Shown here: one piece after another, positions 2,864 through 63,916 of the stretch
Numbering within the stretch: position 1 is the stretch's first letter
Layout: each line of letters opens with the position of its first letter
Virus record (IMG/VR): IMGVR_UViG_3300009155_000035
Direction: 5' to 3' (one strand)
From: a virus
Lineage: Duplodnaviria; Caudoviricetes
Length of the DNA stretch: 64,000 bases
Notes under the pieces: generated by a model
The model's input: the letters and a program-made list of their open reading frames with translations, nothing else
Told to the model about the DNA's origin: nothing
Databases searched by the model: none
Made by a program: the position numbers and the translations under genes

Positions 2864-2890
2864 TTACTAACATTTTTGAAGGATGCGATT

Positions 2891-37744: not shown

Positions 37745-38445
37745 AGCAAGCCATAAGCGAAGTGATGATCAAACGCAATCGTGATTTGAAATTTCAACCC
37801 CCACCTTATAACAAAAATGCCTCATTTGATTGGATACAATGGCATTCAGGTTTGCCTTGGCTCAGGCTTGATATCCCAGTTCCCGCAGACACAATCTTAA
37901 AAGAAATTGCCAAAATTGAACCGTACTTGACAGTGCACCGTGAAGAGTATTCAGAACACGCAGGCTGGAAAAGCTTTTGTATTCATGGCAAAGCTTATGA
38001 TGCCACTCGCGAAGATACGCATTATAACGATCAACGGCCTTATACTTGGACCACAGAAGCATTGCAACACATGCCAGAAACAGTTGAGTACTTTAAAAAT
38101 CATTGGCCAGGATCTGGATACAGGCGTATTCGAGTTATGTTGCTGGAGCCTGGCGGGTACATTACCATACATGCAGACGCTACTTCACCGGGCATGCGAG
38201 CAGTCAACATATCAATTACTCAACCAGAACAATGCGACTTTATCATGTCTGGGCATGGCACTGTGCCATATCAGACAGGGTCTGCCATGTGGTTAGATAC
38301 ATCTAATTTGCACGTGGTGTATAATCACAGTACCAAACCCAGATGGCATATCATAGTACATCAACAGTTTGACAACATCAAGTTCCAAGACTTGGTTGTA
38401 AACAGTTACAAAATGTTGTATAATAACATTGATGCGCCCAGATAA
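37738..38445 (+). CDS. Asp/Asn beta-hydroxylase-like 2OG-Fe(II) oxygenase
   Basis: RIRVMLLEPGGYITIHAD (HxD), LDTSNLHVVYN.S..PRWHIIV; start moved to 37738. Confidence 0.8.
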   Translation: MLKQAISEVMIKRNRDLKFQPPPYNKNASFDWIQWHSGLPWLRLDIPVPADTILKEIAKIEPYLTVHREEYSEHAGWKSFCIHGKAYDATREDTHYNDQRPYTWTTEALQHMPETVEYFKNHWPGSGYRRIRVMLLEPGGYITIHADATSPGMRAVNISITQPEQCDFIMSGHGTVPYQTGSAMWLDTSNLHVVYNHSTKPRWHIIVHQQFDNIKFQDLVVNSYKMLYNNIDAPR

Positions 38446-39559
38446 TTTTTGTTATGCACCCTGGTCCGGACTTGAGATCATGCAAAGTGGTAAGATATTG
38501 CCATGTTGTAAGTTCATGGACGAATACTATGACCGACGATACAACATAACACAAGACACAGTGGATGATTATCGTAACAGCAAGTACCTGGCCGAGATCA
38601 AACAAGAATTTTTAAATGGGCAATGGCCACGTGGTTGTGAACGTTGCAAGCTTGAAGAAGAATCACATATAAAAAGCAAACGTCAACTTGACTATGATCG
38701 TTGGCAAGACAAGTATGCAACCTATGACATCAACAGCAACGAATGTTTGTCACTGGGTATTGCATTTGGTAACACTTGCAATTTAAAATGCATCATCTGT
38801 CATCCATCTGCATCCAGCAAGTGGCAGAAAGAATATAGTGATTTATATGGTGTGACTTTTCCCATAATAGAAAGTTTCCGTAAGCCTGTTATTAATTCAA
38901 TTACAAGCCTAGCCCCCAATCTCATGCACATAGATATCTATGGTGGAGAACCATTTTTGTCCGGCATTGCAGAACATGAACAACTGCTTGACTACTACAT
39001 TGCATCAGGTCAAGCAAAAGAAATCACAATCCATTATACCACAAACGGCACACTATGGCCTGGCGAATCTTGGTTCAGTCGCTGGCAGCATTTCAAAGAG
39101 ATTGATTTGCAAATAAGCATAGATGGCATTGAAGAACGATTTGGCTATCTAAGATTCCCGGCCAAATGGAGCGACCTAGAACACAATGTACAACAATACA
39201 TAAGTCGCCAAAGTAGCAATTTTAGGCTAAGTGTGGCTCACACCGTGAGTGCATTTAATGTATACTACTTGGACGAATTTATTTCTTGGTGCCATGCCGT
39301 GGGCTTGCCAAAGCCCTGGTTAAGTCGATTACACAAACCCGAAGCCATGCGGGCCAACGTTTGGCCACGTGAAGTACGTGAAGTAATATCTCAGCACCTG
39401 CGCAAAAGCCGTTGGCCCGAAGTAAAGAACTGGGCTAGACTAATATTAGAAGATGGTCCTGACAGATTTGAGGAGTTTTGTGACCTTGTCAGCAAACATG
39501 ATCGGTATAGAAAGTTAGATTACAGGATAATTTTTCCCGAGATGGCACAGTACATATGA
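38432..39559 (+). CDS. Radical SAM protein with N-terminal SPASM/twitch-like Cys cluster
   Basis: CYAPW, PCC, CERC; NTCNLKCIIC (CxxxCxxC), GGEP, TTNG, SIDG, YLRFP..W. Confidence 0.85.
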   Translation: MRPDNFCYAPWSGLEIMQSGKILPCCKFMDEYYDRRYNITQDTVDDYRNSKYLAEIKQEFLNGQWPRGCERCKLEEESHIKSKRQLDYDRWQDKYATYDINSNECLSLGIAFGNTCNLKCIICHPSASSKWQKEYSDLYGVTFPIIESFRKPVINSITSLAPNLMHIDIYGGEPFLSGIAEHEQLLDYYIASGQAKEITIHYTTNGTLWPGESWFSRWQHFKEIDLQISIDGIEERFGYLRFPAKWSDLEHNVQQYISRQSSNFRLSVAHTVSAFNVYYLDEFISWCHAVGLPKPWLSRLHKPEAMRANVWPREVREVISQHLRKSRWPEVKNWARLILEDGPDRFEEFCDLVSKHDRYRKLDYRIIFPEMAQYI

Positions 39560-41025
39560 AGCGAGCAACATTAATTATACGTGACGAAGTCAACTTGAAG
39601 ATTGAAGGACTGGATCTTGACGCTCGCCGCACACTGGTCAATAAGTTCAAGTACGATGTTCCTTATGCACGTTATCTACCGGCAGTGAGATTGGGCAGAT
39701 GGGACGGCAAGGTCAGTTACTTCCAACTTGGCGGCAGTACCTACGTTAATTTGTTGCCAGAAATAATTCCTTTGCTTGAACAAATGAATTATGACATAGA
39801 GCTAGAGGACCAGCGAGAGTATTCAGTTACATTTGATTTCAAAGAAGTTGAAGAAAATTCTTGGTCACATAAAGTTTGGCCAAAAGGACATCCTGCAGAA
39901 GGTGCTCCTGTAATGTTACGTGATTACCAAGTATCAATTGTCAATAACTTTTTGCAAAATCCGCAATGCATCCAAGAAGTTGCCACCGGCGCCGGTAAAA
40001 CCATTATGACAGCCACGTTGAGTTCACGCATAGAACCTTACGGACGAAGCATTGTTATTGTACCCAACAAAAGCCTTGTTACACAAACAGAAAAAGATTA
40101 TGTGAATCTAGGTCTAGATGTTGGCGTGTACTATGGCGAGAGAAAAGAACACGGGCATCAGCACACTATTTGCACCTGGCAGAGTTTAAATGTATTGCTT
40201 AAAAATACCAAGTCAGGTGTGGGCAATGTTACTATACAAGACTTTATCGAAGGTGTGGTATGTATAATTGTTGACGAAGTACACATGGCCAAAGCTGATG
40301 CGCTCAAAACTTTGTTGACAGGTGTAATGAGTACCATACCTATTCGTTGGGGACTCACTGGAACAATCCCAAAAGAAAAATTTGAAAGCCAAGCACTAAT
40401 GGTAAGTCTTGGTCCAGTAATTGACCGCTTGACTGCCAACGAACTACAACAACAGGGCGTGTTGGCCAATTGCCATGTGAACATTGTTCAACTGGTTGAT
40501 CATGTAGAGTACAAAGACTATCAAAGCGAACTAAAGTATTTGTTAGAAGAGTCTGGTAGGTTGGACACAATCTCCAAGCTTGTACAGCAAGTTAATGAAA
40601 CCGGCAACACATTAGTGCTGGTAGATCGAGTAGCAGCCGGGCATGAGTTAGTTAGCCGTTTAGGTGATCGTGCAGTGTTTGTATCGGGTGCAACCAAAGC
40701 AAAGGCAAGACAAGATGAATATGATGAAGTGGCCGAGAGTACTGGAAAGATTATTGTGGCGACTTACGGTGTGGCCGCTGTGGGTATTAATATTCCAAGG
40801 ATTTTTAATCTGGTTCTTCTTGAACCCGGAAAGAGCTTTGTCCGCGTTATACAATCAATTGGACGCGGCATTAGAAAAGCAGAAGATAAAAACTTCGTAC
40901 AAATCTGGGACGTCACGTCAACGTGCAAATTCGCTAAACGTCACCTTACAAAACGCAAGCAGTTCTACAAAGAAGCCAACTATCCCTTTACGCAGGAACA
41001 GCTAGAATGGATGACACATGGGTAA
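39556..41025 (+). CDS. uvsW: SF2 DNA helicase (UvsW-like)
   Basis: LRDYQ, ATGAGKT, IVDEVH, WGLTGT, ATYGVAAVGINIP, QSIGRGIR. Confidence 0.9.
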   Translation: MKRATLIIRDEVNLKIEGLDLDARRTLVNKFKYDVPYARYLPAVRLGRWDGKVSYFQLGGSTYVNLLPEIIPLLEQMNYDIELEDQREYSVTFDFKEVEENSWSHKVWPKGHPAEGAPVMLRDYQVSIVNNFLQNPQCIQEVATGAGKTIMTATLSSRIEPYGRSIVIVPNKSLVTQTEKDYVNLGLDVGVYYGERKEHGHQHTICTWQSLNVLLKNTKSGVGNVTIQDFIEGVVCIIVDEVHMAKADALKTLLTGVMSTIPIRWGLTGTIPKEKFESQALMVSLGPVIDRLTANELQQQGVLANCHVNIVQLVDHVEYKDYQSELKYLLEESGRLDTISKLVQQVNETGNTLVLVDRVAAGHELVSRLGDRAVFVSGATKAKARQDEYDEVAESTGKIIVATYGVAAVGINIPRIFNLVLLEPGKSFVRVIQSIGRGIRKAEDKNFVQIWDVTSTCKFAKRHLTKRKQFYKEANYPFTQEQLEWMTHG

Positions 41026-41650: not shown

Positions 41651-42151
41651 ATGAGAATACTAACACTTGACGATACGGCATATGATTTAAACACGTTGCC
41701 AGAAGAAGTAGATGACATGCGTTTTGCTATTTTAGATAATAGCGATCCCAACGCACCAGATTACTTTTACATACCTTTGATTTTTCTTGAAAGCTTTAAT
41801 AGCCCAGCTTTGGTATTGAAAATTGGAGAGCATACAATTCGAATGCCCATGGACTGGCAAGTACTAATTGGGGAACCAGACATAGGTGACTTAGAAGTAC
41901 TGCCACTCACAGCTATCAACGATCGTGGCTTCAGAGTATTTCAGTTCAATCCGCTAAGTAGTTTTAGGCCCAGCTTTCCAGACATTGAAATCGTGGATGT
42001 GTATCACGAAGTAACATGGTATGCCCCAAAGTTAAAAAATGGACAAATGCTAGCTGTGCCACTCACTGATGGGGACACCCCAGAATGTGTCTACTTTGTC
42101 AAAGATGTAAGCCGTAATTGCGAAGTAGTCAATTATAATTTGGCCTGGTAA
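41651..42151 (+). CDS. Hypothetical protein, possible degenerate Hint-like beta fold
   Basis: 166 aa, beta-strand pattern; see finding. Confidence 0.45.
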   Translation: MRILTLDDTAYDLNTLPEEVDDMRFAILDNSDPNAPDYFYIPLIFLESFNSPALVLKIGEHTIRMPMDWQVLIGEPDIGDLEVLPLTAINDRGFRVFQFNPLSSFRPSFPDIEIVDVYHEVTWYAPKLKNGQMLAVPLTDGDTPECVYFVKDVSRNCEVVNYNLAW

Positions 42152-42153
42152 TT

Positions 42154-42363
42154 ATGGATCAATACAAAGACGACGGAACTGACCGCAAGGTAGTTGCACT
42201 TCATAAAGATAAAACAGAACAAGAATTGCATACCAAGATTAGCGAACTAGCTCGCAAAGTTGAAGAACAAGATGCTAAAATACAGCGCATGCATCGCGAC
42301 ATTGTGCGTTTGCGAGAAGCCATTAACCAAGTAGCAATTAGATCAAACCCAAATGCTCGATAA
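42154..42363 (+). CDS. Small coiled-coil hypothetical protein
   Basis: 69 aa heptad pattern; operonic. Confidence 0.5.
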   Translation: MDQYKDDGTDRKVVALHKDKTEQELHTKISELARKVEEQDAKIQRMHRDIVRLREAINQVAIRSNPNAR

Positions 42364-42793
42364 ACTACACATTCGAAATGAGATGGCAAATCTTGATCGA
42401 AAGAATCGCGAGTTCTACGACAGCTTGACTGATGAGGAACGCAAGAAGTTCAGTCCTTATCTCATGATTCGCTGGAGCAGTGCAATTGATGGAGACAGAG
42501 AACTTCAAGAGTATTATGTAAGAAGTTGCAATCACTATCTTAATCGAGACTTCTTTGCAGTCAATCGTCATCCCAAACTGCAATGGCTCATGGCAACCGC
42601 AGTAAGCCCGGATCTGGGTACGCCTTCGCACTCTTGGATAAAGCCCAAACCAAAAGAAAAAGGTGACAATGAAGTTAAGAAAAAGTTGATGTCGTTATAC
42701 CCAAACATGAAGATGGACGAGATCGAATTGCTCAGTAAGCTAGTATCTAAAAAAGATATAGCTGCCTATATGCGTGAGATGGGTGATGATTGA
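42353..42793 (+). CDS. Possible clamp-loader small subunit (gp62-like)
   Basis: FSPYLMIRW and W(I)KPK resemble the phage clamp-loader A subunit; replication context. Confidence 0.4.
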   Translation: MLDKLHIRNEMANLDRKNREFYDSLTDEERKKFSPYLMIRWSSAIDGDRELQEYYVRSCNHYLNRDFFAVNRHPKLQWLMATAVSPDLGTPSHSWIKPKPKEKGDNEVKKKLMSLYPNMKMDEIELLSKLVSKKDIAAYMREMGDD

Positions 42794-42795
42794 AC

Positions 42796-43470
42796 ATGTC
42801 TTATATTTGCCGATATTGTGACCGAGAGTTTGTTAAAGAAACCAGTTTACAAGTACATGTTTGCGAACACAAGAAGAGATATCTTGAACGTGAAGAAACA
42901 GGTGTACAAATTGGATTGCAAGCATACTTGACTTTCTATGAGATTACTCAAGGATCAGCTAAACTAAAATCCTGGGACGACTTTGTCAAGAGTCCGTACT
43001 ACAGGGCATTTGTTAAATTTGGTAGATACTGTCAAAGTATTCGCGCAATCAACATTTCACGTTTTATCGATTGGCTGCTCAAGAACAACAAAAAAATTGA
43101 CTACTGGTGTCGCGATACTGTGTATACAGAATATTTGGAAAGTTATCTCAAAGTAGAAGCAGTTACCGACGCACTGGCTAGAGCAATAGAATACAGCATT
43201 GCTTGGGCTGAGATCACAGACAGTCCGTCGCATGATTGTTTGAGATTTGGCAACGACAATGTTATTTGCCACAACATCATATCAGGTCGTATAAGCCCCT
43301 GGGTGGTGTACAATTGTGACTCGGGCATTGAGTTTTTGGGTCGTATCAATCAAGAACAACTTGCTATGATTTGGAACTTGGTAGACACAGATTTTTGGAG
43401 TAAAAAATTCCAGGATTATGTGGCCGATCAAGAATATGTCAAAGATATCTTAAAACAAGCAGGATGGTAA
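42796..43470 (+). CDS. Hypothetical protein with N-terminal C2HC/C2H2 Zn finger
   Basis: YICRYCDREFVKETSLQVHVC. Confidence 0.55.
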   Translation: MSYICRYCDREFVKETSLQVHVCEHKKRYLEREETGVQIGLQAYLTFYEITQGSAKLKSWDDFVKSPYYRAFVKFGRYCQSIRAINISRFIDWLLKNNKKIDYWCRDTVYTEYLESYLKVEAVTDALARAIEYSIAWAEITDSPSHDCLRFGNDNVICHNIISGRISPWVVYNCDSGIEFLGRINQEQLAMIWNLVDTDFWSKKFQDYVADQEYVKDILKQAGW

Positions 43471-43737
43471 ATGCCAGCTGGTGTAATAGTGTTGAGCAAA
43501 GACACCTGGGAAGACTTGGAAGATCGCCTGCGAGATGAATATGCACATACACCAAGTGTGATGCTTATTAGAAGCCGCATGAGAGAAGTACTGGGATTTA
43601 CTCCGCGGGTTCACAGTCAATGGATTGAATTCACACCAGCCAACAGCACTGTTCCTAGAATCCGTCTGATTGAAGAAGTGCATTTAGATTTTTTCAATCC
43701 AGCACAAGAAACATTTTTTAGACTAAAATATCTATGA
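43471..43737 (+). CDS. Small hypothetical protein
   Basis: 88 aa ending F.LKYL, abuts neighbours. Confidence 0.5.
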   Translation: MPAGVIVLSKDTWEDLEDRLRDEYAHTPSVMLIRSRMREVLGFTPRVHSQWIEFTPANSTVPRIRLIEEVHLDFFNPAQETFFRLKYL

Positions 43738-44723
43738 CACCAATTGATTTCATGGGCGGGTCTCATGGAAACTTCCTTGAATTTGTTTGCAACAAGTTTC
43801 TTGCCAAGGTACCTGTTGCCGCTGATATTCCGTTTAACTTATACGGCGCCAGTCATGGCAAACAATACTTGGGCAAGAAAGAATTTGTATGCGCTCACTA
43901 CTCGGTGTTTGGCGAACCAGTTCCAGCAGGCAAAGTGATATCAATACAAATTACGCAGGATGATTTACTTGCGTTACAATGTATCAGTCTACTTCGAGCC
44001 GGGGACTACGATATTAATCCAAATCAACTTGAAGTCAACACTTACAACAAGTTAAACAATCGAGACTATCGTTGGGTACTTGATAATTTGTGCAACAAAT
44101 ATTTTGATAACCAAGTAGCAGAAAGTTACCAAGCAATCGCCGACCCAAATTGGCCATGTGTTACCAGTGTTGATGAATACAATCAACTACCAGAACCAAT
44201 ACGTGTTGAATGTGAGCAGGTACACAGCCTACAATTATATCAGTTTAATTCTGAACATCCAGATTGTCCTAGATATATTTTACGAGAGTTTTTTAAATTT
44301 GGATTTGCTAATCCAGACAAGCATGGATTCATTGCTCATCAACAGTTAATGCAGTATACTAGTGAACATAGTGTTTACATATTTCCCTATTCAAGTTTTT
44401 ATGACACTGATGTTTTTGTAACCGAGGTAGTCAAGTTGTCAAACTGGATGGGATTGTCGTTTACGCCTGATGAGGAATTTGTAACTTTGCACCAAGAATT
44501 TTTAAAACGGCAAGTGTATAAAAATGTCAAACAGGATTGTGAGTCAATTGTTGAAAAAATCATGCTTGGTGAACAGTTTAGATTGCCAAGCTTGGATGTT
44601 ATTCAAGAAGCATATATTGAAGCCAGGATTGAACAGTTGACAGGAATACAGATGCCACTGAATCAACACAAGTGGTTTTTTAATTCAATAGAAATACAAA
44701 ATTTATATGAGCGCCGACGTTGA
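43734..44723 (+). CDS. Sulfotransferase-fold-like hypothetical protein with DPNWP module
   Basis: DFMGGSHGNFL N-terminal loop; FPYSSFYDTD.F...V..L...MGL tail; internal YQAIADPNWPC module. Confidence 0.4.
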   Translation: MTPIDFMGGSHGNFLEFVCNKFLAKVPVAADIPFNLYGASHGKQYLGKKEFVCAHYSVFGEPVPAGKVISIQITQDDLLALQCISLLRAGDYDINPNQLEVNTYNKLNNRDYRWVLDNLCNKYFDNQVAESYQAIADPNWPCVTSVDEYNQLPEPIRVECEQVHSLQLYQFNSEHPDCPRYILREFFKFGFANPDKHGFIAHQQLMQYTSEHSVYIFPYSSFYDTDVFVTEVVKLSNWMGLSFTPDEEFVTLHQEFLKRQVYKNVKQDCESIVEKIMLGEQFRLPSLDVIQEAYIEARIEQLTGIQMPLNQHKWFFNSIEIQNLYERRR

Positions 44724-45285
44724 CATTGATTTGCCTGACAGGGATGTTTTATTACGTTTAATAAAGCATATACCAGCAAGGTTGGAACTTGGAACATCAG
44801 TACGCAAGCATAACTCGGGTGTGTACATCACTGATATCCCACAAGACCCAGTCAATGGGTGTGCGGCATTGGATTATGAATCTGCCGAACAACGTGGTTA
44901 TTTTAAAATTGACTTGCTGAACATGAGTGTGTACAGCTTGGTCAAAGATCCAGAACACTACAGGACAATGCTTGATGCAGAGCCACCTTGGTCTCGATCA
45001 TGGACTGATAAGGCCTGGGCTTCTCAACTGGTACATGTGGGCAATTATACTGACTTGTTAGCAGAAATGAAACCTGATTCTATACCACGCATGGCAGCTT
45101 TTATTTCTATAATTAGACCAGGCAAGGCCCACTTACAGCATAAGTCTTGGCAAGAAGTTTTTGCTACAGTATGGGATGGTGACAGCAGTAAGGGTTTTAC
45201 ATTTAAAAAATCACATGCTTTGAGTTATGCTCACTTGGTTGCATTGCACATGAATTTAATCAACTCTACGGACCAAAGTAATTGA
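44707..45285 (+). CDS. Minimal DnaE (Pol III alpha, family C) catalytic fragment
   Basis: ADVDID (two catalytic Asp), KHNSGVY, GYFKIDLL (third Asp), IIRPG, FKKSHALSYA; only 192 aa. Confidence 0.8.
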   Translation: MSADVDIDLPDRDVLLRLIKHIPARLELGTSVRKHNSGVYITDIPQDPVNGCAALDYESAEQRGYFKIDLLNMSVYSLVKDPEHYRTMLDAEPPWSRSWTDKAWASQLVHVGNYTDLLAEMKPDSIPRMAAFISIIRPGKAHLQHKSWQEVFATVWDGDSSKGFTFKKSHALSYAHLVALHMNLINSTDQSN

Positions 45286-45633
45286 TCTTCTCTTGCTTTT
45301 GCGTTTGGTGATATCATTTAAGCTACAAACAGGACCATGAATAATTTCCAAGTCCTTGTTGCTAAATGTACGTAGATAAACCTTGAAATCGTCCCACTCG
45401 CCTTTAAGGAAGATGTTGATTGGGATACTACGGTTGCTCTCCCACCACCAAACATTTGCAAGTTCTAAGAACTTTTGCTTGTGTTCATTGTTTGCTATAC
45501 TACCAAAATCGTAGATAGTTGTGACTGTATTGTCTTGATTTTGTATAATACCAACGTACTCTATCCCTGCATACACGCACAGCGTTATGAACGGATAGTG
45601 TTCGCTAAGAGTACTAAACATATTTTTACCCAT
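45256..45633 (-). CDS. Hypothetical protein
   Basis: 125 aa with WWWESNRSIPINIFL; convergent overlap with the DnaE fragment. Confidence 0.6.
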   Translation of the reverse strand: MGKNMFSTLSEHYPFITLCVYAGIEYVGIIQNQDNTVTTIYDFGSIANNEHKQKFLELANVWWWESNRSIPINIFLKGEWDDFKVYLRTFSNKDLEIIHGPVCSLNDITKRKSKRRSITLVRRVD

Positions 45634-46439: not shown

Positions 46440-47173
46440 AGTTTAAAAAAATTGTAGGTTTTGGGGATAGCTGGGTTTGGGGCGACGAGTTACTGGACCC
46501 AGTTTTGCTTTCTAAAGACAAAAATGCACATCCAAGTTGGATGCAAAATACTCCTTACAGAGAAAGCAATTGCTTTTTGGGATTGCTAGGCAAACATTAC
46601 AACGTCCCAGCTGAAAACTTTGGAATCCCCGGTGGAAGTTTACAAAGTACCATTTGGACTTTTCTTTGGTGGCTGCATCACGAACCCAATCCATCAGAGT
46701 GCCTGGTACTAACCGGCTTAACTGAAGGTAGTAGAATGAGTTTTTTCAATCCCAACCATCAACGCATGAACAACGACCCACCGTGGAACAAATTTGTACA
46801 CAGTGCCTGGGTACATGCCGGGGTTGAAGACGGGCCTGTTACTCGAGACTGGTCCGATATGATCAAACGTTACATGGTATTAAGTGAAAGCGATCCACTG
46901 AGCTTGTTAAATTACCAACAAGCATTGTATACATTTGATGGCATTGCTGCCAGACGAAATATACCCATGCTAATTTGGGATATAAGTCCCCCACAAGAAG
47001 AATTATCAGTACCAACAAAAATTTGGACAGGCTTTAACTTTGTACATTGGCTAAGACGCCATCCAAATGAACTAGAGTTAACATTTCCGGGCGGCCACCC
47101 GAATGAAAAAGGGCACTTAATACTCCGAGATATGTTGCAAGATGAGATTGATCGTGTTATACTATCACAGTGA
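46436..47173 (+). CDS. SGNH hydrolase-like protein
   Basis: VGFGDSWVWG, NFGIPGGS, C-terminal GGHPNEKGH. Confidence 0.7.
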   Translation: MKFKKIVGFGDSWVWGDELLDPVLLSKDKNAHPSWMQNTPYRESNCFLGLLGKHYNVPAENFGIPGGSLQSTIWTFLWWLHHEPNPSECLVLTGLTEGSRMSFFNPNHQRMNNDPPWNKFVHSAWVHAGVEDGPVTRDWSDMIKRYMVLSESDPLSLLNYQQALYTFDGIAARRNIPMLIWDISPPQEELSVPTKIWTGFNFVHWLRRHPNELELTFPGGHPNEKGHLILRDMLQDEIDRVILSQ

Positions 47174-48150
47174 TCAACGTATTCGATTATCTGCCAGGCA
47201 AACGCAAACAAACACCATCAGGATGGGTCAGCTTCAATGCGGTTTGTTGCACTCATAATGGCAACAGCTTAGACCGACGCCAGCGAGGTGGATTCAAAGC
47301 AACCGAACAAGGCTGGAGCTACCACTGCTTTAATTGTGGGTATACTGCTAGTTTTATTCTTGGAAGGCAGCTAACATTCAAAGCCCGTAAGCTATTGACC
47401 TGGCTAAACGTGCCAGATGCAGAGATTGAACATGTTAACTTAGAAAGTCTAAAGCATCGCAACATACACGGCATCATAGACGACAGGCAACAAATGTTTA
47501 ATACTCTTCAAGCCATTGAGTTTGAAGAACGAGATCTACCGCCCTTTGCAGAGTTGTTGACCGATGAAAATGCGGGGTACACAGAATATGTGAGATCCAG
47601 GTGCGTGCCAGAAGACTTTCCTGTGATGATACAAGAGCGCAACGACGGTGTTCATTGGGTGCGTCCGCACGTGGTAATTCCGTTTACACACAATGACAAA
47701 ATTGTGGGATGGACTTGTAGATTTTTAGACAACAAGCAACCCAAGTTTATCAGTGACAGCCAGCCAGGTTATGTATTTGGCACAGACTTGCAACACAGCG
47801 ATTGGCAGTATGTGATTGTTACTGAAGGAATTTTTGATGCACTCTCTATAGGCGGTCTAGCGTTAATGCACAATACTATAAGCGATGCTCAGGCAAGATT
47901 AATACGCAGTCTAGGAAAAGAAATTGTTGTAGTACCAGATCAAGACAAACCGGGTATGAAGTTGGTTGACCGCGCAGTAGAGCTTAACTGGGCAGTGAGT
48001 ATACCCAATTGGCCCGAGGACGTCAAAGATGTCAACGATGCAGTGATTAGATATGGCAAGTTGGCCACTTTGATGATGATTATGCAGGCAAAAGAAACAT
48101 CCAAGATCAAAATAGAGATGCAAAAGAAAAAGGTACTAAAGCGTGTCTAA
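47170..48150 (+). CDS. DNA primase (gp61/DnaG-like)
   Basis: Zn finger CC..HCFNC; TOPRIM VTEGIFDA, VVPDQD, KDVND. Confidence 0.9.
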   Translation: MINVFDYLPGKRKQTPSGWVSFNAVCCTHNGNSLDRRQRGGFKATEQGWSYHCFNCGYTASFILGRQLTFKARKLLTWLNVPDAEIEHVNLESLKHRNIHGIIDDRQQMFNTLQAIEFEERDLPPFAELLTDENAGYTEYVRSRCVPEDFPVMIQERNDGVHWVRPHVVIPFTHNDKIVGWTCRFLDNKQPKFISDSQPGYVFGTDLQHSDWQYVIVTEGIFDALSIGGLALMHNTISDAQARLIRSLGKEIVVVPDQDKPGMKLVDRAVELNWAVSIPNWPEDVKDVNDAVIRYGKLATLMMIMQAKETSKIKIEMQKKKVLKRV

Positions 48151-49243
48151 TTCATGGTGCCCAGAAATATTTCGCAGTATCTATGTTGATAGATTTAATG
48201 ATGATCAAATACGATTTGCACCCTGCTGTCAAGCACTGCCAACAATAGAACCTTTGTCTACATTTGATTTTGCCACCAATCAATATCTAACTGGTCTAAG
48301 AGAACAAATAGCACAAGGCAAAAAACCCACTGAGTGTGATTCATGTTGGAAAGTAGAACGTGTAGGGCAAAAAAGTCGTAGACAAAGTGCTATTGAATTC
48401 TTTTCAATTGAGCCTAATATAGACGTGGTGTTAGAAAGTATTGATCACAGCGCCACATGGGCTTGCAATTCTGCTTGTGTAATGTGCAAACCACAGCATA
48501 GCAGTATGTGGGCCAGTGAGTTAAACTACAGTGCAGACGAATTGTACAAAGCTGGACGACGTTTTCAAAAAGCCAATAATTTTTTAGAGTACCTTGATAT
48601 TACAAACATTAAGAAAATACATTTCAATGGCGGAGAGCCGTTGTTAAACAACGATCAAGTTGAGTTGTTGGAAAAACTAAAGACCAACAACAAGTTGTCA
48701 TCTACATTTGTGAGCTATAATACAAACGGCACAGTTTATCCCTCACAAAAGATTTTGAATTTATGGGCAGAGACTCGTTTGGTAAAGTTGTTTTTTAGTT
48801 TAGATGCAATTGGCCCTGCATTTAACTACATACGTTGGCCAGGAGATTGGAACCAAGTGCGTGACAATATTTTGAGACTGCGTGATACTGCACCATCAAA
48901 TGTTATGTTTGGGATCAACGCCACAGTAGGTGCTCATAATTTATTAGAGATTGGTGCAATGTATCAGTGGTTTGACGCAAATTTAAAAACCAACCGAGAA
49001 GGTGACCCATCGGATTTTTGTTGGCAATTTGCCGATAACTTTCCAGTGTCTGCGGTGCCCGAGCAAGTTAAAAATAAAGCCATCGAACAATTGTCCAATG
49101 TTGATGTATTGACTCCATTGGCAGACCATGTTAAATATAACCCACCCAGCAGTTATCCGTGGACACAAACGTTAGATACAATTGATCAACGACGCGGAAC
49201 CGACTGGCGTACTGTGTTAGAAATTGGAAAATATGACTGTTAA
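48143..49243 (+). CDS. Radical SAM protein with N-terminal SPASM/twitch-like cluster
   Basis: CPE, PCC, CDSCW; ACNSACVMC, FNGGEP, YNTNG, SLDA, YIRWP..W. Confidence 0.85.
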   Translation: MSNSWCPEIFRSIYVDRFNDDQIRFAPCCQALPTIEPLSTFDFATNQYLTGLREQIAQGKKPTECDSCWKVERVGQKSRRQSAIEFFSIEPNIDVVLESIDHSATWACNSACVMCKPQHSSMWASELNYSADELYKAGRRFQKANNFLEYLDITNIKKIHFNGGEPLLNNDQVELLEKLKTNNKLSSTFVSYNTNGTVYPSQKILNLWAETRLVKLFFSLDAIGPAFNYIRWPGDWNQVRDNILRLRDTAPSNVMFGINATVGAHNLLEIGAMYQWFDANLKTNREGDPSDFCWQFADNFPVSAVPEQVKNKAIEQLSNVDVLTPLADHVKYNPPSSYPWTQTLDTIDQRRGTDWRTVLEIGKYDC

Positions 49244-49959: not shown

Positions 49960-51396
49960 ATGCTTAAAGAATACACAGTTGATATACAAAGATTGTTTTT
50001 GGAGATGATGTTAGAGGACGCACAAAGTTATGTGCGTGTACAGAACATCTACAACCCACAGAACTTTGACAGGAGTTTACGTGCTGCCGCCGAGTTTATC
50101 AAAGAGCATACTGACAAGTTCAAGACCATGCCCGAGCGTACACAGATTGCAGCCGCAACCAGTGTAAAGCTTCAGCCGGTGCCAGATCTCAACGAAGGTC
50201 ACTTTGAATGGTTTATGCAAGAGTTTGAAAGTTTTACCAAGCGCCAAGAACTTGAAAGGGCTATTCTTAAAGCGGCAGACTTGCTGGAAAAAGGTGAGTT
50301 TGACCCCGTTGAGAAACTGATCAAAGATGCTGTTCAAATATCCCTGACCAAGGACCTGGGCACAGATTTTTGGCTAGATCCGGAATCCATGTTCAGTCGA
50401 TACTTTGATGCAGGTGGACAAGTAAGCACAGGATGGCCACAGCTGGACAAGTTGCTGTATGGTGGATTCAGTCGAGGTGAACTCAACATCTTTGCAGGTG
50501 GATCGGGATCAGGCAAGTCCTTGGTCATGATGAACATTGCGTTGAATTGGGTACAACTGGGACTGCATGGTGTTTATATCACGCTTGAACTTAGTGAAGA
50601 GCTCACAGGTCTGCGCACAGCGGCCATGTTGACTAACATGAGCACCAAGGACATTCGCAAAGACAAAGAAACTGCATCGTTAAAAATCAAATTGGTTGGT
50701 AAAAAAGCAGGTAGTTATCAAGTCAAGGCATTGCCAGCACAAAGCAATATCAATGATATTCGCGCATTCTTGAAAGAGTATCAAATCAAAACAGGACGCA
50801 AAGTAGACTTCATGATGATTGACTACTTGGACTTGTTGATGCCGGTTAGTGCCAAAGTCAGTCCCAACGACTTGTTTGTTAAAGACAAGTACGTGAGTGA
50901 GGAACTGCGTAACTTGGCCAAAGAGCTGGGTATCTTGATGGTAACAGCTTCGCAGTTGAACCGAAGTGCTGTGGAAGAAATTGAATTTGATCACTCGCAC
51001 ATTTCGGGCGGTATCTCCAAGATCAACACAGCAGACAACGTGTTCGGCATCTTTACCAGTCGTGCCATGAAAGAGCGTGGCAAGTATCAGATCCAGTGTA
51101 TGAAGAGTCGTAGTTCTACAGGTGTGGGACAAAAGATTGATTTAGACTACAACATGGAAACCATGCGTATTACAGACAGTGGTGACGCAGAAGGCGAGGG
51201 TTTCAGTAAAAAGCCTTCAATGAATATCATGGAAAGTATCAAGGCAAAGGCCAGTGTTAGTGCGAGTACCAGTGAAACAAGTTCAACATCCTGGGAAAGA
51301 GCCACAGGAACGCCAGCGTGGGAACAACCTCCCAAGGTAGAAGCTGAAGTTCAAAGTGCAAAACTAAAACAGTTGCTTGGACAAATTAAAAAATAA
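49960..51396 (+). CDS. Replicative helicase (T4 gp41/DnaB-like)
   Basis: STGW..LD, GGSGSGKS, TLELSE, IDYLDL, TASQLNR, ISKINTAD, KSR. Confidence 0.95.
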   Translation: MLKEYTVDIQRLFLEMMLEDAQSYVRVQNIYNPQNFDRSLRAAAEFIKEHTDKFKTMPERTQIAAATSVKLQPVPDLNEGHFEWFMQEFESFTKRQELERAILKAADLLEKGEFDPVEKLIKDAVQISLTKDLGTDFWLDPESMFSRYFDAGGQVSTGWPQLDKLLYGGFSRGELNIFAGGSGSGKSLVMMNIALNWVQLGLHGVYITLELSEELTGLRTAAMLTNMSTKDIRKDKETASLKIKLVGKKAGSYQVKALPAQSNINDIRAFLKEYQIKTGRKVDFMMIDYLDLLMPVSAKVSPNDLFVKDKYVSEELRNLAKELGILMVTASQLNRSAVEEIEFDHSHISGGISKINTADNVFGIFTSRAMKERGKYQIQCMKSRSSTGVGQKIDLDYNMETMRITDSGDAEGEGFSKKPSMNIMESIKAKASVSASTSETSSTSWERATGTPAWEQPPKVEAEVQSAKLKQLLGQIKK

Positions 51397-52406
51397 TGTA
51401 CGCATATCAAGATATACGTCATGTGCATTTAGAAATTTCTAGTCGGTGCAATGCAGAGTGCCCGCTGTGTCCTAGAAATTTTTATGGATATCCCTACAAT
51501 GATGGGTACATTGAGCATGATATGACATTGGGTGAAGCACAACGTATATTCTCGGTTGATTTTATCAAACAGTTGGGCGCAGTACAAATCAATGGTAACT
51601 TTGGCGACATCGTCATGAATCATGATGCTATCTCCATTGTTGAATATTTGCGTAGTCATAACAATGTCATGGACATCACTGTTACCACAAACGCTGGCGC
51701 CAGAGATAAAAAATTCTGGCGAGAACTGGCAAGATTACGATGCCGTGTTATTTTTTGTATTGAGGGGTTTGAAGACACTCATCATCTCTACAGACAAAAT
51801 ACACGCTATGAAGTCGTTATAAAAAACGCCAAGACATTTATTGACGCGGGCGGTACAGCTACCTGGAAAATGATAGACTTTGCGCATAACAAGCATCAGC
51901 AAGAACCAGCTCGCCAACTATCTAAAGACATGGGGTTTAAGAACTTTCTTTTGGTAGATTACGGACGAGATACTGCCCCAGTATTTGACCACAGTGGCAA
52001 TTTAAAACACGTCATTGGCAACCCCACAGAGACAAATTTTAAAAAAATGTTTTTTACGCGAACTGTCAACAGAGTATTTCTTAAAGATATCATTGATGAT
52101 AGAACCCCTGCTCCAATCAGTTGTGCAGTCAAGGGATCAAGTTCAGTGTACGTGTCCAGTACCGGTGATGCGTACCCATGTTGTTTCTTGGGATTTAATC
52201 CCAAAACATATGGGCATGGTAATTATCATGCCGCTGCCAACAAACAAATATCTGAATTAATTTACGAAAACAATGCTATTGAACATGGGCTAGAACATGC
52301 TATTAAATGGTTTGATAATATTGTAAAGGCCTGGGAAATACCCGACTTCCTCAGTGGCCGCCCAATCATTTGTCATGACTATTGTTCCAAAAACGGTAAA
52401 TATTGA
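51396..52406 (+). CDS. Radical SAM protein with C-terminal SPASM/twitch-like Cys
   Basis: SRCNAECPLC, NGNFGD, TTN, C-terminal C...YPCC...C...C. Confidence 0.85.
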   Translation: MYAYQDIRHVHLEISSRCNAECPLCPRNFYGYPYNDGYIEHDMTLGEAQRIFSVDFIKQLGAVQINGNFGDIVMNHDAISIVEYLRSHNNVMDITVTTNAGARDKKFWRELARLRCRVIFCIEGFEDTHHLYRQNTRYEVVIKNAKTFIDAGGTATWKMIDFAHNKHQQEPARQLSKDMGFKNFLLVDYGRDTAPVFDHSGNLKHVIGNPTETNFKKMFFTRTVNRVFLKDIIDDRTPAPISCAVKGSSSVYVSSTGDAYPCCFLGFNPKTYGHGNYHAAANKQISELIYENNAIEHGLEHAIKWFDNIVKAWEIPDFLSGRPIICHDYCSKNGKY

Positions 52407-61597: not shown

Positions 61598-63916
61598 ATG
61601 ACACAAATACAAGTACAAAAACGTGGTGGGCGTAAAGAACCACTAGACCTTGAAAAATTACATAAAGTAGTGTTTTGGGCAACACAAGGAATCACAGGAG
61701 TATCAGCAAGCGAAGTAGAAATCAAAAGTCATTTACAGTTTTACAACGGAATTCCAACAGCAAGCATTCAAGAAACATTGATCAAGTCAGCCGCTGATTT
61801 AATCAGCGAAGAAACGCCAAACTATCAGTATGTTGCCGGGCGCTTAATTTGTTACCACATTCGTAAACAAGTCTACGGTGACTTTACCCCATGCCACATT
61901 CGAGAATTAGTTAAACGTAATGTAGCCAGTGGGTTCTACGATCATGAACTGTTAACAGCATACAGCACTGACGAGTGGGACAAGATCAATGCATTTATAC
62001 GCCATGATCGAGACGAGCAGTTGACATATGCTGCCATGGAACAGTTTCGCGGCAAATACCTAGTACAAAATCGCGTAACAAAAGAAATTTTTGAAACACC
62101 ACAAGTGACCTATGCATTGATTGCTGCCACATTGTTTGTTAACTATCCATCTGAAACAAGATTGCAATGGGTCAAAGACTACTATGACGCAATTAGCACA
62201 CATCAAATCAGTCTGCCTACACCTGTAATGTCTGGTGTTCGCACACCACAACGTCAGTTCTCCAGCTGTGTTCTAATCGAGACTGACGATAGCTTAGATT
62301 CAATCAATGCAACAACGTCTAGTATTGTAAAATATGTAAGTCAAAAGGCAGGTATTGGCATCGGCGCCGGTCGCATTCGTGCTCTTGGTTCACCTATTCG
62401 CAATGGTGATGCTTATCACACTGGTGTAATTCCCTTTTATAAAATGTTCCAGGCGGCTACACGCAGTTGCAGCCAAGGTGGAGTGCGCAATGGCGCGGCT
62501 ACGTTGTATTATCCGATCTGGCATCTTGAAGTTGAGGATCTGTTGGTCCTAAAAAATAACAAAGGCACCGACGACAACCGTGTACGTCATATGGACTACG
62601 GCGTACAGTTTAACAAAGTCATGTATGAACGTTTGCTGACCAATGGAAACATATCATTGTTCTCTCCCAATGATGTTCCCGAAATGTTTGATGCATTCTA
62701 CAAAGATGTTGACCGTTTCCGTGATCTATACGAAGCGGCTGAACGCAATACAAAAATACGCAAGAAAAAGATCAAGGCAATTGATTTGTTTACAATGTTC
62801 ATGCAAGAACGTAAAGACACTGGTCGTGTGTACTTGATGAATGTAGACCACGCCAACAATCATGGCGCATTTATTCCTGAACTAGCACCGATACGTCAAA
62901 GCAATCTGTGCTGTGAAATTAATTTGCCTACAAAACCACTAAACGATATTAATGACCCCAATGGAGAAATTGCATTATGCACACTCAGCGCATTGAACTG
63001 GGGAGTGTTTAAAGAGCCGCAAGACATGGAAAGTGCTTGCACATTGGCAGTGCGTGGACTTGATGCATTGTTGACTTATCAAGACTATCCAGTTCTCGCG
63101 GCAAAAATGGCCACAGACAATCGTCGACCCTTGGGGGTTGGCATCATTAACTTGGCCTACTGGTTGGCCAAGAATGATCTAAGCTACAGCGATCCAGCCG
63201 CATTGGCCAAGGTCGACGAGTGGGCTCAACACTGGAGCTATTACTTGATCAAAGCCAGTGCTGATCTTGCCCAAGAGTTTGGAGCATGCCCCAAGAGCAA
63301 CGAAACAAAATACCATAATGGCGTTCTCCCAGTAGACACATACAAGCAAGAAGTTGATGAGCTTGTACCACACCGTGATGTAGTTGACTGGGCCGGATTA
63401 CGTGAGCAACTTAAACGTACCGGAATTCGAAACAGTACACTGATGGCGTTAATGCCAGCAGAAACAAGTGCTCAAATTAGTAATGCCACCAATGGTATTG
63501 AACCACCACGTAGCTATGTTTCGATCAAACAAAGTAAAGATGGTGTGCTAAAACAAGTGGTGCCAGAGTATCGTAGATTAAAAAACAAATATGAACTTTT
63601 ATGGGATCAAAAATCTCCTGAAGGCTATTTGAAAATTTGTGCAGTTTTGCAAAAATATATTGATCAAGGTATCAGTGTCAATACCAGCTACAATCCACAA
63701 TTTTACGATGAAGAAAAAATTACCATGAGTGACATGCTCAAGCATTTGGTAATGTTCTACAAGTACGGCGGAAAGCAACTTTACTACTTCAATACCTATG
63801 ATGGATCCGGCGAAATTGATATCGACCGACTAGCACAATCCAAATCTATCTTAATTGAAAGCGTTGACACATCGTTAATAGCAGACGATGCAGATTGCGA
63901 CAGTTGTAAAATTTAA
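61598..63916 (+). CDS. nrdA: Class Ia ribonucleotide reductase alpha subunit with ATP cone
   Basis: N-terminal VQKRGG ATP cone, PTPVM, QFSSC, SNLCCEI, CTL, MPAETS, LYY, C-terminal CDSC. Confidence 0.97.
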   Translation: MTQIQVQKRGGRKEPLDLEKLHKVVFWATQGITGVSASEVEIKSHLQFYNGIPTASIQETLIKSAADLISEETPNYQYVAGRLICYHIRKQVYGDFTPCHIRELVKRNVASGFYDHELLTAYSTDEWDKINAFIRHDRDEQLTYAAMEQFRGKYLVQNRVTKEIFETPQVTYALIAATLFVNYPSETRLQWVKDYYDAISTHQISLPTPVMSGVRTPQRQFSSCVLIETDDSLDSINATTSSIVKYVSQKAGIGIGAGRIRALGSPIRNGDAYHTGVIPFYKMFQAATRSCSQGGVRNGAATLYYPIWHLEVEDLLVLKNNKGTDDNRVRHMDYGVQFNKVMYERLLTNGNISLFSPNDVPEMFDAFYKDVDRFRDLYEAAERNTKIRKKKIKAIDLFTMFMQERKDTGRVYLMNVDHANNHGAFIPELAPIRQSNLCCEINLPTKPLNDINDPNGEIALCTLSALNWGVFKEPQDMESACTLAVRGLDALLTYQDYPVLAAKMATDNRRPLGVGIINLAYWLAKNDLSYSDPAALAKVDEWAQHWSYYLIKASADLAQEFGACPKSNETKYHNGVLPVDTYKQEVDELVPHRDVVDWAGLREQLKRTGIRNSTLMALMPAETSAQISNATNGIEPPRSYVSIKQSKDGVLKQVVPEYRRLKNKYELLWDQKSPEGYLKICAVLQKYIDQGISVNTSYNPQFYDEEKITMSDMLKHLVMFYKYGGKQLYYFNTYDGSGEIDIDRLAQSKSILIESVDTSLIADDADCDSCKI

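What the first reader, a model, noticed from the sequence alone, without database searches (positions are those of the whole stretch)
44707..45285. A 192-aa DnaE core retaining all three catalytic aspartates in a T4-like replisome
Seen: DVDID, KHNSGVY, KIDLL, IRPG and FKKSHA..YA in normal DnaE order but with the intervening regions deleted; no PHP, OB or clamp-binding domain and no intein ends. Established: E. coli DnaE is 1160 aa with catalytic D401/D403/D555, and T4 uses a family B polymerase. Inference: an extremely reduced or split family C polymerase (other parts elsewhere or supplied by neighbouring unknown ORFs), or a repurposed nucleotidyltransferase such as a primer-extension or repair enzyme.
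Basis: partly seen in the sequence, partly recalled or inferred. Interest (0 to 1): 0.7.

Follow-up and report, generated by a model that had tools for sequence, protein, structure and literature searches.

The report
Half of a split mini-DnaE polymerase
This 192-residue jumbo-phage gene is the metal-binding half of a two-piece, stripped-down relative of the bacterial replicative DNA polymerase (Pol III alpha/DnaE); the kind was predicted from genome comparison in 2021, I found no bench test of it, and the partner half lies outside this window.

Summary
The ORF at 44707-45285 (+) is intact and encodes 192 aa. All five DnaE motifs are present in DnaE order. D4, D6 and D69 match E. coli D401, D403 and D555, and they are invariant in 78 diverse homologues.

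A family profile hits only Pol III alpha among solved structures (E 2.7e-6). An AlphaFold model (pLDDT 95.5) aligns over 186-189 of 192 residues to E. coli alpha 399-784 or Taq alpha 460-841 (Z up to 9.5; the next unrelated hit is Z 3.9). The gene is not decaying: median dN/dS is 0.08 and length is conserved.

It is not a complete core. The NTP-binding GRGS helix sits on a separate protein of about 170-177 aa that ends where this ORF begins. That partner is absent from the window. It lies 30-224 kb away in all 10 complete or nearly complete relatives checked, beside a family B polymerase in the seven of them searched for one. One 375-aa natural fusion of both halves exists.

This is the split minimal Pol III alpha of group 2.2 jumbo phages (Iyer et al. 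2021), so it is a new member of a known, biochemically untested kind. Earlier agents in this scan reached the same reading on other genomes.

The parts
44707..45285 (+). C-terminal (metal-binding and reduced-fingers) half of the split minimal Pol III alpha. Carries DxDxD (D4, D6, D8), H35-x2-G38, K67-x-D69, R137-P138-G, and K167-K-S-H170.
   Evidence: phrog_11778 E 4.6e-51. Profile hits only DnaE structures. AF2 pLDDT 95.5. VIA-align Z 9.5 onto Taq alpha 460-841 and Z 7.0-7.8 onto E. coli alpha 399-784.
39556..41025 (+). UvsW-like SF2 DNA helicase. It marks the upstream edge of the conserved replication/recombination block.
   Evidence: phrog_16 E 2e-75; ResIII, Helicase_C, weak UvsW_N. Same position in Phosso, Paride and EJP2.
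41651..42151 (+). Conserved syntenic neighbour, phrog_11279 (166 aa), function unknown.
   Evidence: Present at the same place in Paride, EJP2, Atu_ph07 and Phosso. No PDB or Pfam match.
42353..42793 (+). Conserved syntenic neighbour, phrog_11758 (146 aa), function unknown.
42790..43470 (+). Conserved syntenic neighbour, phrog_11058 (226 aa), with an N-terminal C2HC/C2H2-type zinc finger (C7, C10, H23, C25 invariant). Function unknown.
45256..45633 (-). Conserved convergent neighbour, phrog_11637 (125 aa). Its 3' end overlaps the 3' end of the C-half gene by 30 nt. Function unknown.
   Evidence: Same convergent arrangement in Phosso, Paride, EJP2, Atu_ph07 and the Vibrio phage.
47170..48150 (+). 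DnaG-type primase, part of the T4-type replisome context.
   Evidence: phrog_47 E 2.4e-34.
49960..51396 (+). DnaB-like replicative helicase, part of the T4-type replisome context.
   Evidence: phrog_19 E 1.7e-65.

Best explanation
The ORF encodes one of two subunits of a minimal C-family (Pol III alpha/DnaE-like) nucleotidyltransferase found in group 2.2 (Rak2-, PA5oct- and Atu_ph07-like) jumbo phages.

This subunit supplies the beta-sheet of the Pol-beta-like palm. It carries the three metal-binding aspartates (D4, D6, D69), the lysine next to the third aspartate (K67, matching E. coli K553), and a cut-down fingers subdomain with the RPG and KSH motifs.

A second protein of about 170-177 aa is encoded tens to hundreds of kb away and lies outside this window. 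It supplies the helix-GRGS-helix element that binds the nucleotide triphosphate. The break falls between E. coli residues about 393 and 399. Neither end carries intein sequence, so the two proteins must assemble non-covalently to form one active site.

Inferred and not shown: the assembled enzyme of about 365 aa has no PHP, thumb, clamp-binding or OB domain. It most likely acts as a short-patch, low-processivity DNA polymerase for gap filling, primer extension or recombination-associated synthesis, working beside the phage's family B replicase. It probably does not act as the main replicase.
For: Shown:
- Homology to DnaE by profile (only Pol III alpha chains, E 2.7e-6) and by PHROG.
- Structural match. 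C-half residues 1-192 align to E. coli alpha 399-784 or Taq alpha 460-841, Z up to 9.5, with 186-189 residues aligned. Residues 76-176 of a relative's N-half align to E. coli 277-393, Z 10-12, rmsd 2.1-2.8. The two halves therefore abut.
- Catalytic residues are invariant in 78 diverse members and map to D401, D403, K553 and D555.
- N-halves end ...EFL[RNK] directly after GVGRGSSVASY, and the C-half starts 3 residues before DxD.
- A natural fused 375-aa protein joins the two with a linker of about 10 residues.
- Both halves occur as separate genes in 5 of 5 IMG/VR jumbo genomes that are at least 95% complete, each also with one family B polymerase. They also occur in Phosso, Paride, EJP2, Atu_ph07 and Vibrio phage 2.275.O. 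Family B polymerase was found in Phosso and Paride.
- Strong purifying selection: median dN/dS 0.083 over 1060 pairs, no internal stops, lengths 184-201 aa.
- Both families are very large: 6720 and at least 8000 90%-identity clusters.
- Constant position inside a replication/recombination block of UvsW-like helicase, this gene, primase and DnaB.
- The same architecture and a similar suggested role were proposed by Iyer et al. 2021 (PMC7824862, section 3.4.1).

From my own knowledge, not tested here: polymerases of the Pol-beta fold of similar or smaller size are active gap-filling enzymes (Pol beta, 335 aa; ASFV Pol X, 174 aa).
Against: - No biochemical or genetic test of any member was found in the searched literature.
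- The partner half could not be shown in this phage's own genome.
- The heterodimer was not modelled. The aligner would not place the two halves correctly on the fused sequence.
- The enzyme lacks the thumb, the HhH duplex-binding part of the fingers, and about 97 residues of fingers (E. coli 642-738). How it holds primer-template DNA is therefore unexplained.
- Templated DNA synthesis, as opposed to some other nucleotidyl transfer, is inferred only from retention of finger motifs and from genomic context.
Confidence: 0.85

Rival explanations
1. It is a repurposed nucleotidyltransferase rather than a DNA polymerase. The two-piece Pol-beta-fold active site would catalyse non-templated chemistry, for example terminal nucleotide addition, nucleotide-signal synthesis or degradation for counter-defence, or protein or nucleic-acid nucleotidylation.
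For: - The thumb, the duplex-binding HhH region and a large part of the fingers are missing, so canonical primer-template grip is lost.
- The Pol-beta-like fold is widely reused for non-polymerase nucleotidyl transfer (general knowledge; reviewed in PMC11646218).
- The phage already has a complete family B replicase in relatives.
- No activity has been measured.
Against: - The finger motifs conserved with DnaE (RPG, FxKSHAxxYA) are retained and nearly invariant, beyond what a bare nucleotidyltransferase needs.
- All closest structural and sequence relatives are C-family replicases, with no CD-NTase, CCA-adding or MenT-type hit above noise.
- The gene sits constantly between a UvsW-like helicase and primase/DnaB.
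Confidence: 0.1
2. It is a decaying pseudogene or remnant of a full-length phage or host dnaE, with no function of its own.
For: It is very short relative to DnaE. It has no Pfam match and lacks the GS motif.
Against: - Median dN/dS is 0.083. No homologue among 79 has an internal stop. Length is tightly conserved.
- There are thousands of clusters of the same length.
- Catalytic residues are invariant.
- The fold is confidently predicted and compact, pLDDT 95.5.
- Synteny is conserved from Pseudomonas to Vibrio to Agrobacterium phages.
Confidence: 0.01
3. The C-half acts alone or with its conserved neighbours (phrog_11279, phrog_11758, phrog_11058, phrog_11637) rather than with the distant N-half. 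The neighbours would replace the missing DnaE domains.
For: - The five-gene block is conserved in the window, Paride, EJP2 and the Vibrio phage.
- phrog_11058 carries a zinc finger that could bind nucleic acid.
- The enzyme needs some DNA-binding surface.
Against: - No neighbour shows similarity to DnaE, Pfam or the PDB beyond the zinc finger.
- The natural fusion joins the C-half to the N-half, not to a neighbour.
- The N-half supplies the missing GS element, with ends that fit.
- Neighbours as extra subunits in addition to the N-half are not excluded.
Confidence: 0.04

Closest known systems
Split minimal DNA polymerase III alpha of group 2.2 jumbo phages (Iyer, Anantharaman, Krishnan, Burroughs, Aravind 2021, Viruses 13:63; PHROG phrog_11778 for the C-terminal unit)
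   Same: - Same protein family (phrog_11778 E 4.6e-51; 35-44% identity to the PA5oct-like, Phosso, Atu_ph07 and Asteriusvirus proteins).
- Same size.
- Same split into an NTP-binding half and a Mg/DNA-binding half on distant genes.
- Same co-occurrence with a family B polymerase and a T4-type replisome.
   Different: - Nothing in kind. This copy is an environmental lineage at most 77% identical to IMG/VR relatives, with no near DNA match among isolate phages.
- Two extra ORFs (43471-43737 and 43734-44723) are inserted between phrog_11058 and the C-half.
Bacterial DnaE / Pol III alpha (E. coli 1160 aa; Taq 1220 aa) and PolC
   Same: Pol-beta-like palm with DxD plus a third Asp, K553 equivalent, HxxG hairpin, RPG and F(N/K)KSH finger motifs. 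The structural alignment covers E. coli 277-393 (N-half) and 399-784 (C-half).
   Different: - No PHP domain, thumb (about 433-510), fingers segment about 642-738, HhH/beta-binding domain, clamp motif, OB fold or tau-binding tail.
- The polypeptide is broken inside the palm.
- The two halves total about 365 aa against more than 1100 aa.
- Pfam PF07733 does not detect the C-half.
Intein-split cyanobacterial DnaE (Synechocystis/Nostoc DnaE-n and DnaE-c; from my own knowledge)
   Same: A C-family polymerase encoded by two distant genes.
   Different: - There the halves carry split-intein ends and are ligated by trans-splicing into a full-length enzyme, and the break lies in the fingers.
- Here there is no room for intein sequence. 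The N-half ends within about 10 residues after the last palm helix, and the C-half starts 3 residues before DxD.
- The break lies in the palm, and assembly must be non-covalent.
Small Pol-beta-fold repair polymerases (Pol beta, ASFV Pol X; from my own knowledge)
   Same: Comparable or smaller size, the same catalytic fold class, and function without a clamp. They serve as a functional analogy for short-patch synthesis.
   Different: They belong to family X, not family C, and are single polypeptides. No sequence or specific structural hit was seen here.

Membership tests
Split minimal Pol III alpha of group 2.2 jumbo phages, C-terminal unit (phrog_11778) | Significant full-length sequence match to the family profile | tested here: met
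   phrog_11778 E 4.6e-51, residues 3-187 on profile positions 7-193 of 197. tblastn to 96 jumbo phage records, with at least 80% coverage in 95 of them.
Split minimal Pol III alpha of group 2.2 jumbo phages, C-terminal unit (phrog_11778) | Carries the Mg-binding aspartates and template-binding (fingers) part but not the NTP-binding GS part | tested here: met
   D4, D6 and D69 are invariant. RPG and KSH motifs align to E. coli 640 and 758-760. There is no GRGS motif in the ORF.
Split minimal Pol III alpha of group 2.2 jumbo phages, C-terminal unit (phrog_11778) | A separate N-terminal NTP-binding half encoded by a distant gene in the same genome | not testable with these tools
   Absent from the 64-kb window, and the rest of this genome is not held. 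Met in all 10 complete or nearly complete relatives tested, and in the two closest large contigs, where the N-half lies 99-107 kb downstream of the C-half.
Split minimal Pol III alpha of group 2.2 jumbo phages, C-terminal unit (phrog_11778) | Host genome is a group 2 (T4-paradigm) jumbo phage with family B polymerase, DnaB and DnaG primase | tested here: inconclusive
   The window has a UvsW-like helicase, DnaG-type primase, DnaB, tail sheath, TerL and NrdA, but no family B polymerase among its large ORFs. PolB is present in 7 of 7 complete relatives searched and was not found in the two incomplete closest contigs.
C-family DNA polymerase (DnaE/PolC) catalytic core | Pol-beta-like palm with three catalytic carboxylates in DnaE register | tested here: met
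C-family DNA polymerase (DnaE/PolC) catalytic core | GS (GRGS) nucleotide-binding motif on the same polypeptide | tested here: not met
   Missing from this ORF. It is carried by the separate N-half in relatives.
C-family DNA polymerase (DnaE/PolC) catalytic core | PHP domain, thumb, beta-clamp-binding domain and motif, OB fold | tested here: not met
   The entire 192 aa aligns within E. coli 399-784, with the thumb and residues 642-738 collapsed. No Pfam domain was detected.
C-family DNA polymerase (DnaE/PolC) catalytic core | Template-directed DNA polymerase activity | not testable with these tools
   This needs biochemistry. No report was found.
Intein-split DnaE | Split-intein sequences at the junction ends | tested here: not met
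   N-halves end ...EFL[RNK] and the C-half begins MSAD-V-D-I-D. The fused form has only a linker of about 10 residues.

The most novel reading that the evidence does not exclude
The two halves do not work alone. Together with the conserved block that always surrounds the C-half gene (phrog_11279, phrog_11758, the zinc-finger protein phrog_11058 and the convergent phrog_11637), they form a multi-subunit auxiliary polymerase. The missing thumb, duplex-binding and processivity functions of DnaE would be supplied in trans by phage-specific proteins. This would be a modular C-family enzyme working beside a B-family replicase, for example on one strand or in recombination-dependent replication.
Probability: 0.12. 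Interest if true: 0.75.

Novelty: new member of a known kind. Interest (0 to 1): 0.33.

Why it matters
If the two-piece enzyme is active, it would be by far the smallest C-family polymerase: about 365 aa in two chains, against more than 1100 aa. It would define the minimal catalytic unit of the bacterial replicase fold. It would also show a phage replisome that combines B-family and C-family polymerases.

It bears on the proposal (Iyer et al. 2021) that such forms resemble ancestral Pol III. The family is abundant in environmental jumbo phages, with thousands of sequence clusters, and is under strong purifying selection. Tractable isolates exist (PA5oct-like and Asteriusvirus phages), so it is a ready target for biochemistry.

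This window adds no new principle. It adds one more member and does not contain the partner half.

Tried and rejected
- Pfam on the ORF: nothing at E up to 10.
- Single-sequence phmmer against the PDB: nothing. The family profile was needed.
- Megablast of 10 kb around the gene against isolate phages: no match.
- Whole-genome search for the window: no genome is held.
- Exact 40-nt scan of metagenome contigs for the window's own contig: no match.
- Search of the window for the N-half by GRGS regex, tblastn with the Phosso and Paride N-halves, and an N-half HMM: nothing.
- phmmer of E. coli DnaE and of a 558-aa compact DnaE-like protein against all window ORFs: only the finding ORF, and only weakly. 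No other DnaE pieces are present.
- Word-index search for longer or fused relatives of the C-half: none (weak evidence). The exhaustive representative search did find one fusion, P0170.
- Attempt to model the fused or heterodimeric enzyme: MAFFT placed the N-halves on the C-half columns of the fused sequence in two tries. I folded the two halves separately instead.
- ESM Atlas and PDB-profile searches of the conserved neighbours: only phage hypothetical proteins and a zinc finger.
- Literature searches for any experimental work on the mini or split enzyme: only the 2021 comparative paper.
Full report
**What is there**

The window is a fragment of a jumbo myophage. It carries the following genes:
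- tail sheath (2876-6289)
- large terminase (15628-17193)
- UvsW-like helicase (39556-41025)
- DnaG-type primase (47170-48150)
- DnaB-like helicase (49960-51396)
- NrdA (61598-63916)

The ORF at 44707-45285 (+) is intact, 192 aa, with an ATG start. It has no Pfam match even at E 10 and no PDB match as a single sequence. It matches phrog_11778 'DNA polymerase' end to end (E 4.6e-51) and weakly matches the full-length DnaE family phrog_405.

**Checking the observation**

I read E. coli dnaE from NC_000913.3.

| Window ORF | E. coli DnaE | E. coli residues |
|---|---|---|
| MSADVDIDLPD | SMPDFDVDFCM | D401, D403, D405 |
| VRKHNSGVYIT | AGKHAGGVVIA | about 508-518 |
| YFKIDLLNM | LVKFDFLGL | K553, D555 |
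| FISIIRPGK | LVALFRPGP | about 634-642 |
| GFTFKKSHALSYA | GYGFNKSHSAAYA | about 754-766 |

An exhaustive HMMER search of 1.84 billion 50%-identity representatives gave 359 relatives. Nearly all full-length ones are 180-215 aa.

In an alignment of 78 of these (28-58% identical to the query), D4, D6, K67, D69 and P138 are invariant. D8, H35, G38, R137, K167 and H170 are at least 90% conserved.

The profile of that alignment hits only Pol III alpha chains in the PDB (E. coli, Taq, M. tuberculosis DnaE1), with E from 2.7e-6 to 7.5e-5. It aligns the D555 strand, the RPG motif and the KSH motif.

An AlphaFold2 model is very confident (pLDDT 95.5, pTM 0.88). The top 14 Foldseek hits are all C-family polymerases. 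VIA-align places 186-189 of the 192 residues on Taq alpha 460-841, PolC 970-1299 and E. coli alpha 399-784. Z is 9.5 for the first two and 7.0-7.8 for E. coli, and the first unrelated hit is Z 3.9.

The thumb (E. coli about 433-510) and about 97 residues of fingers (642-738) are collapsed, and everything beyond about residue 784 is absent.

**It is only half of the active site**

Iyer et al. 2021 (PMC7824862, section 3.4.1) described a phage-specific minimal Pol III alpha in 'group 2.2' jumbo phages. They reported it as split into an N-terminal NTP-binding protein and a C-terminal Mg- and template-binding protein on distant genes, beside a family B polymerase. I tested this directly.

- **N-halves in isolates.** Searching the complete records of Sinorhizobium phage Phosso and Pseudomonas phage Paride with phrog_405 found the C-half. 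It also found a second ORF of 169-177 aa matching profile positions 362-436. These ORFs contain GVGRGSSVASYVLFLIG, which corresponds to E. coli GPGRGSGAGSLVAYAL. They end ...EFL[NK], which corresponds to E. coli ...ERFLN. This is exactly where the window's protein begins.
- **N-half in the closest large relatives.** The same holds for the two closest large IMG/VR relatives, 212-kb and 148-kb contigs with C-halves 74-75% identical. Their N-half lies 99 and 107 kb downstream of the C-half.
- **Structure.** An AF2 model of a relative's N-half (pLDDT 80; residues 80-176 above 90 for the most part) aligns residues 76-176 to E. coli alpha 277-393. Z is 10-12 and rmsd 2.1-2.8. The two proteins therefore abut in the DnaE structure, at about residues 393 and 399. 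The first 75 or so residues of the N-half are phage-specific.
- **Natural fusion.** One 375-aa protein (P0170) joins the N-half and the C-half with a linker of about 10 residues.
- **No intein.** Neither end has room for intein sequence.

**Co-occurrence**

| Genomes | Both halves on separate genes | Family B polymerase |
|---|---|---|
| 5 IMG/VR jumbo genomes, 342-364 kb, at least 95% complete | 5 of 5, one of each | 5 of 5, one each (886-907 aa frame) |
| Phosso, Paride | 2 of 2 | 2 of 2 |
| Escherichia phage EJP2, Agrobacterium phage Atu_ph07, Vibrio phage 2.275.O | 3 of 3 | not searched |

The two genes are 30-224 kb apart.

The N-half family is as large as the C-half family: at least 8000 against 6720 90%-identity clusters. 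Pfam PF07733 recognises the N-half, and JGI names it 'DNA polymerase III alpha subunit'.

**This window's partner**

- No ORF in the window carries a GRGS motif.
- tblastn with the Phosso and Paride N-halves and an N-half HMM find nothing.
- phmmer with E. coli DnaE finds no further DnaE-like piece.
- By analogy with the closest large relatives, the partner should lie about 100 kb downstream, well outside the 64-kb window.
- I could not reach the parent contig.

**Not a pseudogene**

Among 79 homologous genes from viral contigs plus the window, none has an internal stop. Lengths are 184-201 aa and 75 of 78 start with ATG at the aligned position. Median Nei-Gojobori dN/dS over 1060 pairs with dS between 0.05 and 1.5 is 0.083; the 5th to 95th percentile range is 0.056-0.135.

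**Surroundings**

The gene sits in a block conserved in Pseudomonas, Sinorhizobium, Agrobacterium, Escherichia and Vibrio jumbo phages. The gene order is:
1. UvsW-like helicase
2. phrog_11279
3. phrog_11758
4. phrog_11058
5. C-half
6. phrog_11637, convergent and overlapping the 3' end of the C-half gene
7. a structural protein
8. primase
9. DnaB

None of the neighbours resembles DnaE or anything solved. The only feature found is an N-terminal C2HC/C2H2 zinc finger in phrog_11058. A role as accessory subunits is not excluded.

In this window two extra ORFs (43471-43737 and 43734-44723, neither with any family match) are inserted between phrog_11058 and the C-half.

**Mechanism**

Shown: this protein carries the metal-binding strands and reduced fingers of a C-family palm. 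The GS element is on another protein. The two co-occur, are both under purifying selection, and are occasionally fused.

Inferred: they assemble non-covalently into one nucleotidyltransferase active site. The enzyme has no thumb, no clamp-binding domain and no OB fold, and it sits in a recombination/replication block beside a full B-family replicase. It most likely performs short-patch templated DNA synthesis such as gap filling, primer extension or recombination-associated synthesis.

Polymerases of the Pol-beta fold of this size or smaller (Pol beta, ASFV Pol X) are active; this is from my own knowledge. A non-templated nucleotidyltransferase role cannot be excluded, because most duplex-binding elements are gone.

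**Novelty**

The family, its split architecture and its association with family B polymerases were published in 2021. PHROGs and several GenBank records already label it as a DNA polymerase or DnaE-like. I found no bench work. Earlier agents in this scan reached the same reading on other genomes.

- quantitative structural mapping of both halves onto E. coli alpha (277-393 and 399-784)
- the invariant-residue set
- a natural fusion protein
- dN/dS
- 10 of 10 co-occurrence of the two halves
- the conserved five-gene neighbourhood

The finding itself is a new member of a known, untested kind.

Noticed in passing
window 38429-39559, 48143-49243, 51396-52406 (+): Three separate radical-SAM-domain genes (phrog_14086, phrog_1802, phrog_21308; weak PF04055/SPASM) are interspersed among the helicase, primase and DnaB genes of the replication module. 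Their substrate is unknown. Nucleotide or DNA modification is a possibility.
   Followed up: no
window 41651-42151, 42353-42793, 42790-43470 (+), 45256-45633 (-): Four unknown-function families (phrog_11279, phrog_11758, phrog_11058 with a C2HC zinc finger, phrog_11637) flank the mini-DnaE C-half in the same order in Pseudomonas, Escherichia, Vibrio, Agrobacterium and Sinorhizobium jumbo phages. phrog_11637 is always convergent and overlaps the 3' end of the C-half gene.
   Followed up: partly
window 43471-43737 and 43734-44723 (+): Two ORFs (88 aa and 329 aa) with no PHROG or Pfam match are inserted between phrog_11058 and the C-half. The isolate relatives have at most one small ORF there. 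They are probably a lineage-specific accessory insertion.
   Followed up: no
L090:1099-2775 (-) (IMG/VR contig IMGVR_UViG_3300042868_006771, 54 kb): A related viral contig that carries the mini C-half also encodes an unsplit, compact 558-aa DnaE-like protein (phrog_405 E 2.4e-56, profile positions 350-828). It has a GS motif, DxD, the third Asp and finger motifs but no PHP domain. It lies next to a porin-like gene. This is either a second C-family enzyme or a chimeric assembly.
   Followed up: partly
W02 (Pseudomonas phage Paride OR805295.1) 88906-92683: The family B polymerase matches fall in two open frames (825 aa and 379 aa) about 2.5 kb apart. This suggests a PolB gene interrupted by an intron, an intein or a homing-endonuclease insertion.
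   Followed up: no
P0226 (233 aa): A database protein whose first roughly 100 residues are a C-half N-terminus, joined to an unrelated C-terminal part. It is probably an assembly or gene-calling artefact rather than a real fusion.
   Followed up: no
L092:1878-2270 (+): In the closest large relative, the gene just downstream of the N-half appeared by eye to be a GroES/gp31-type co-chaperonin. This was not tested.
   Followed up: no
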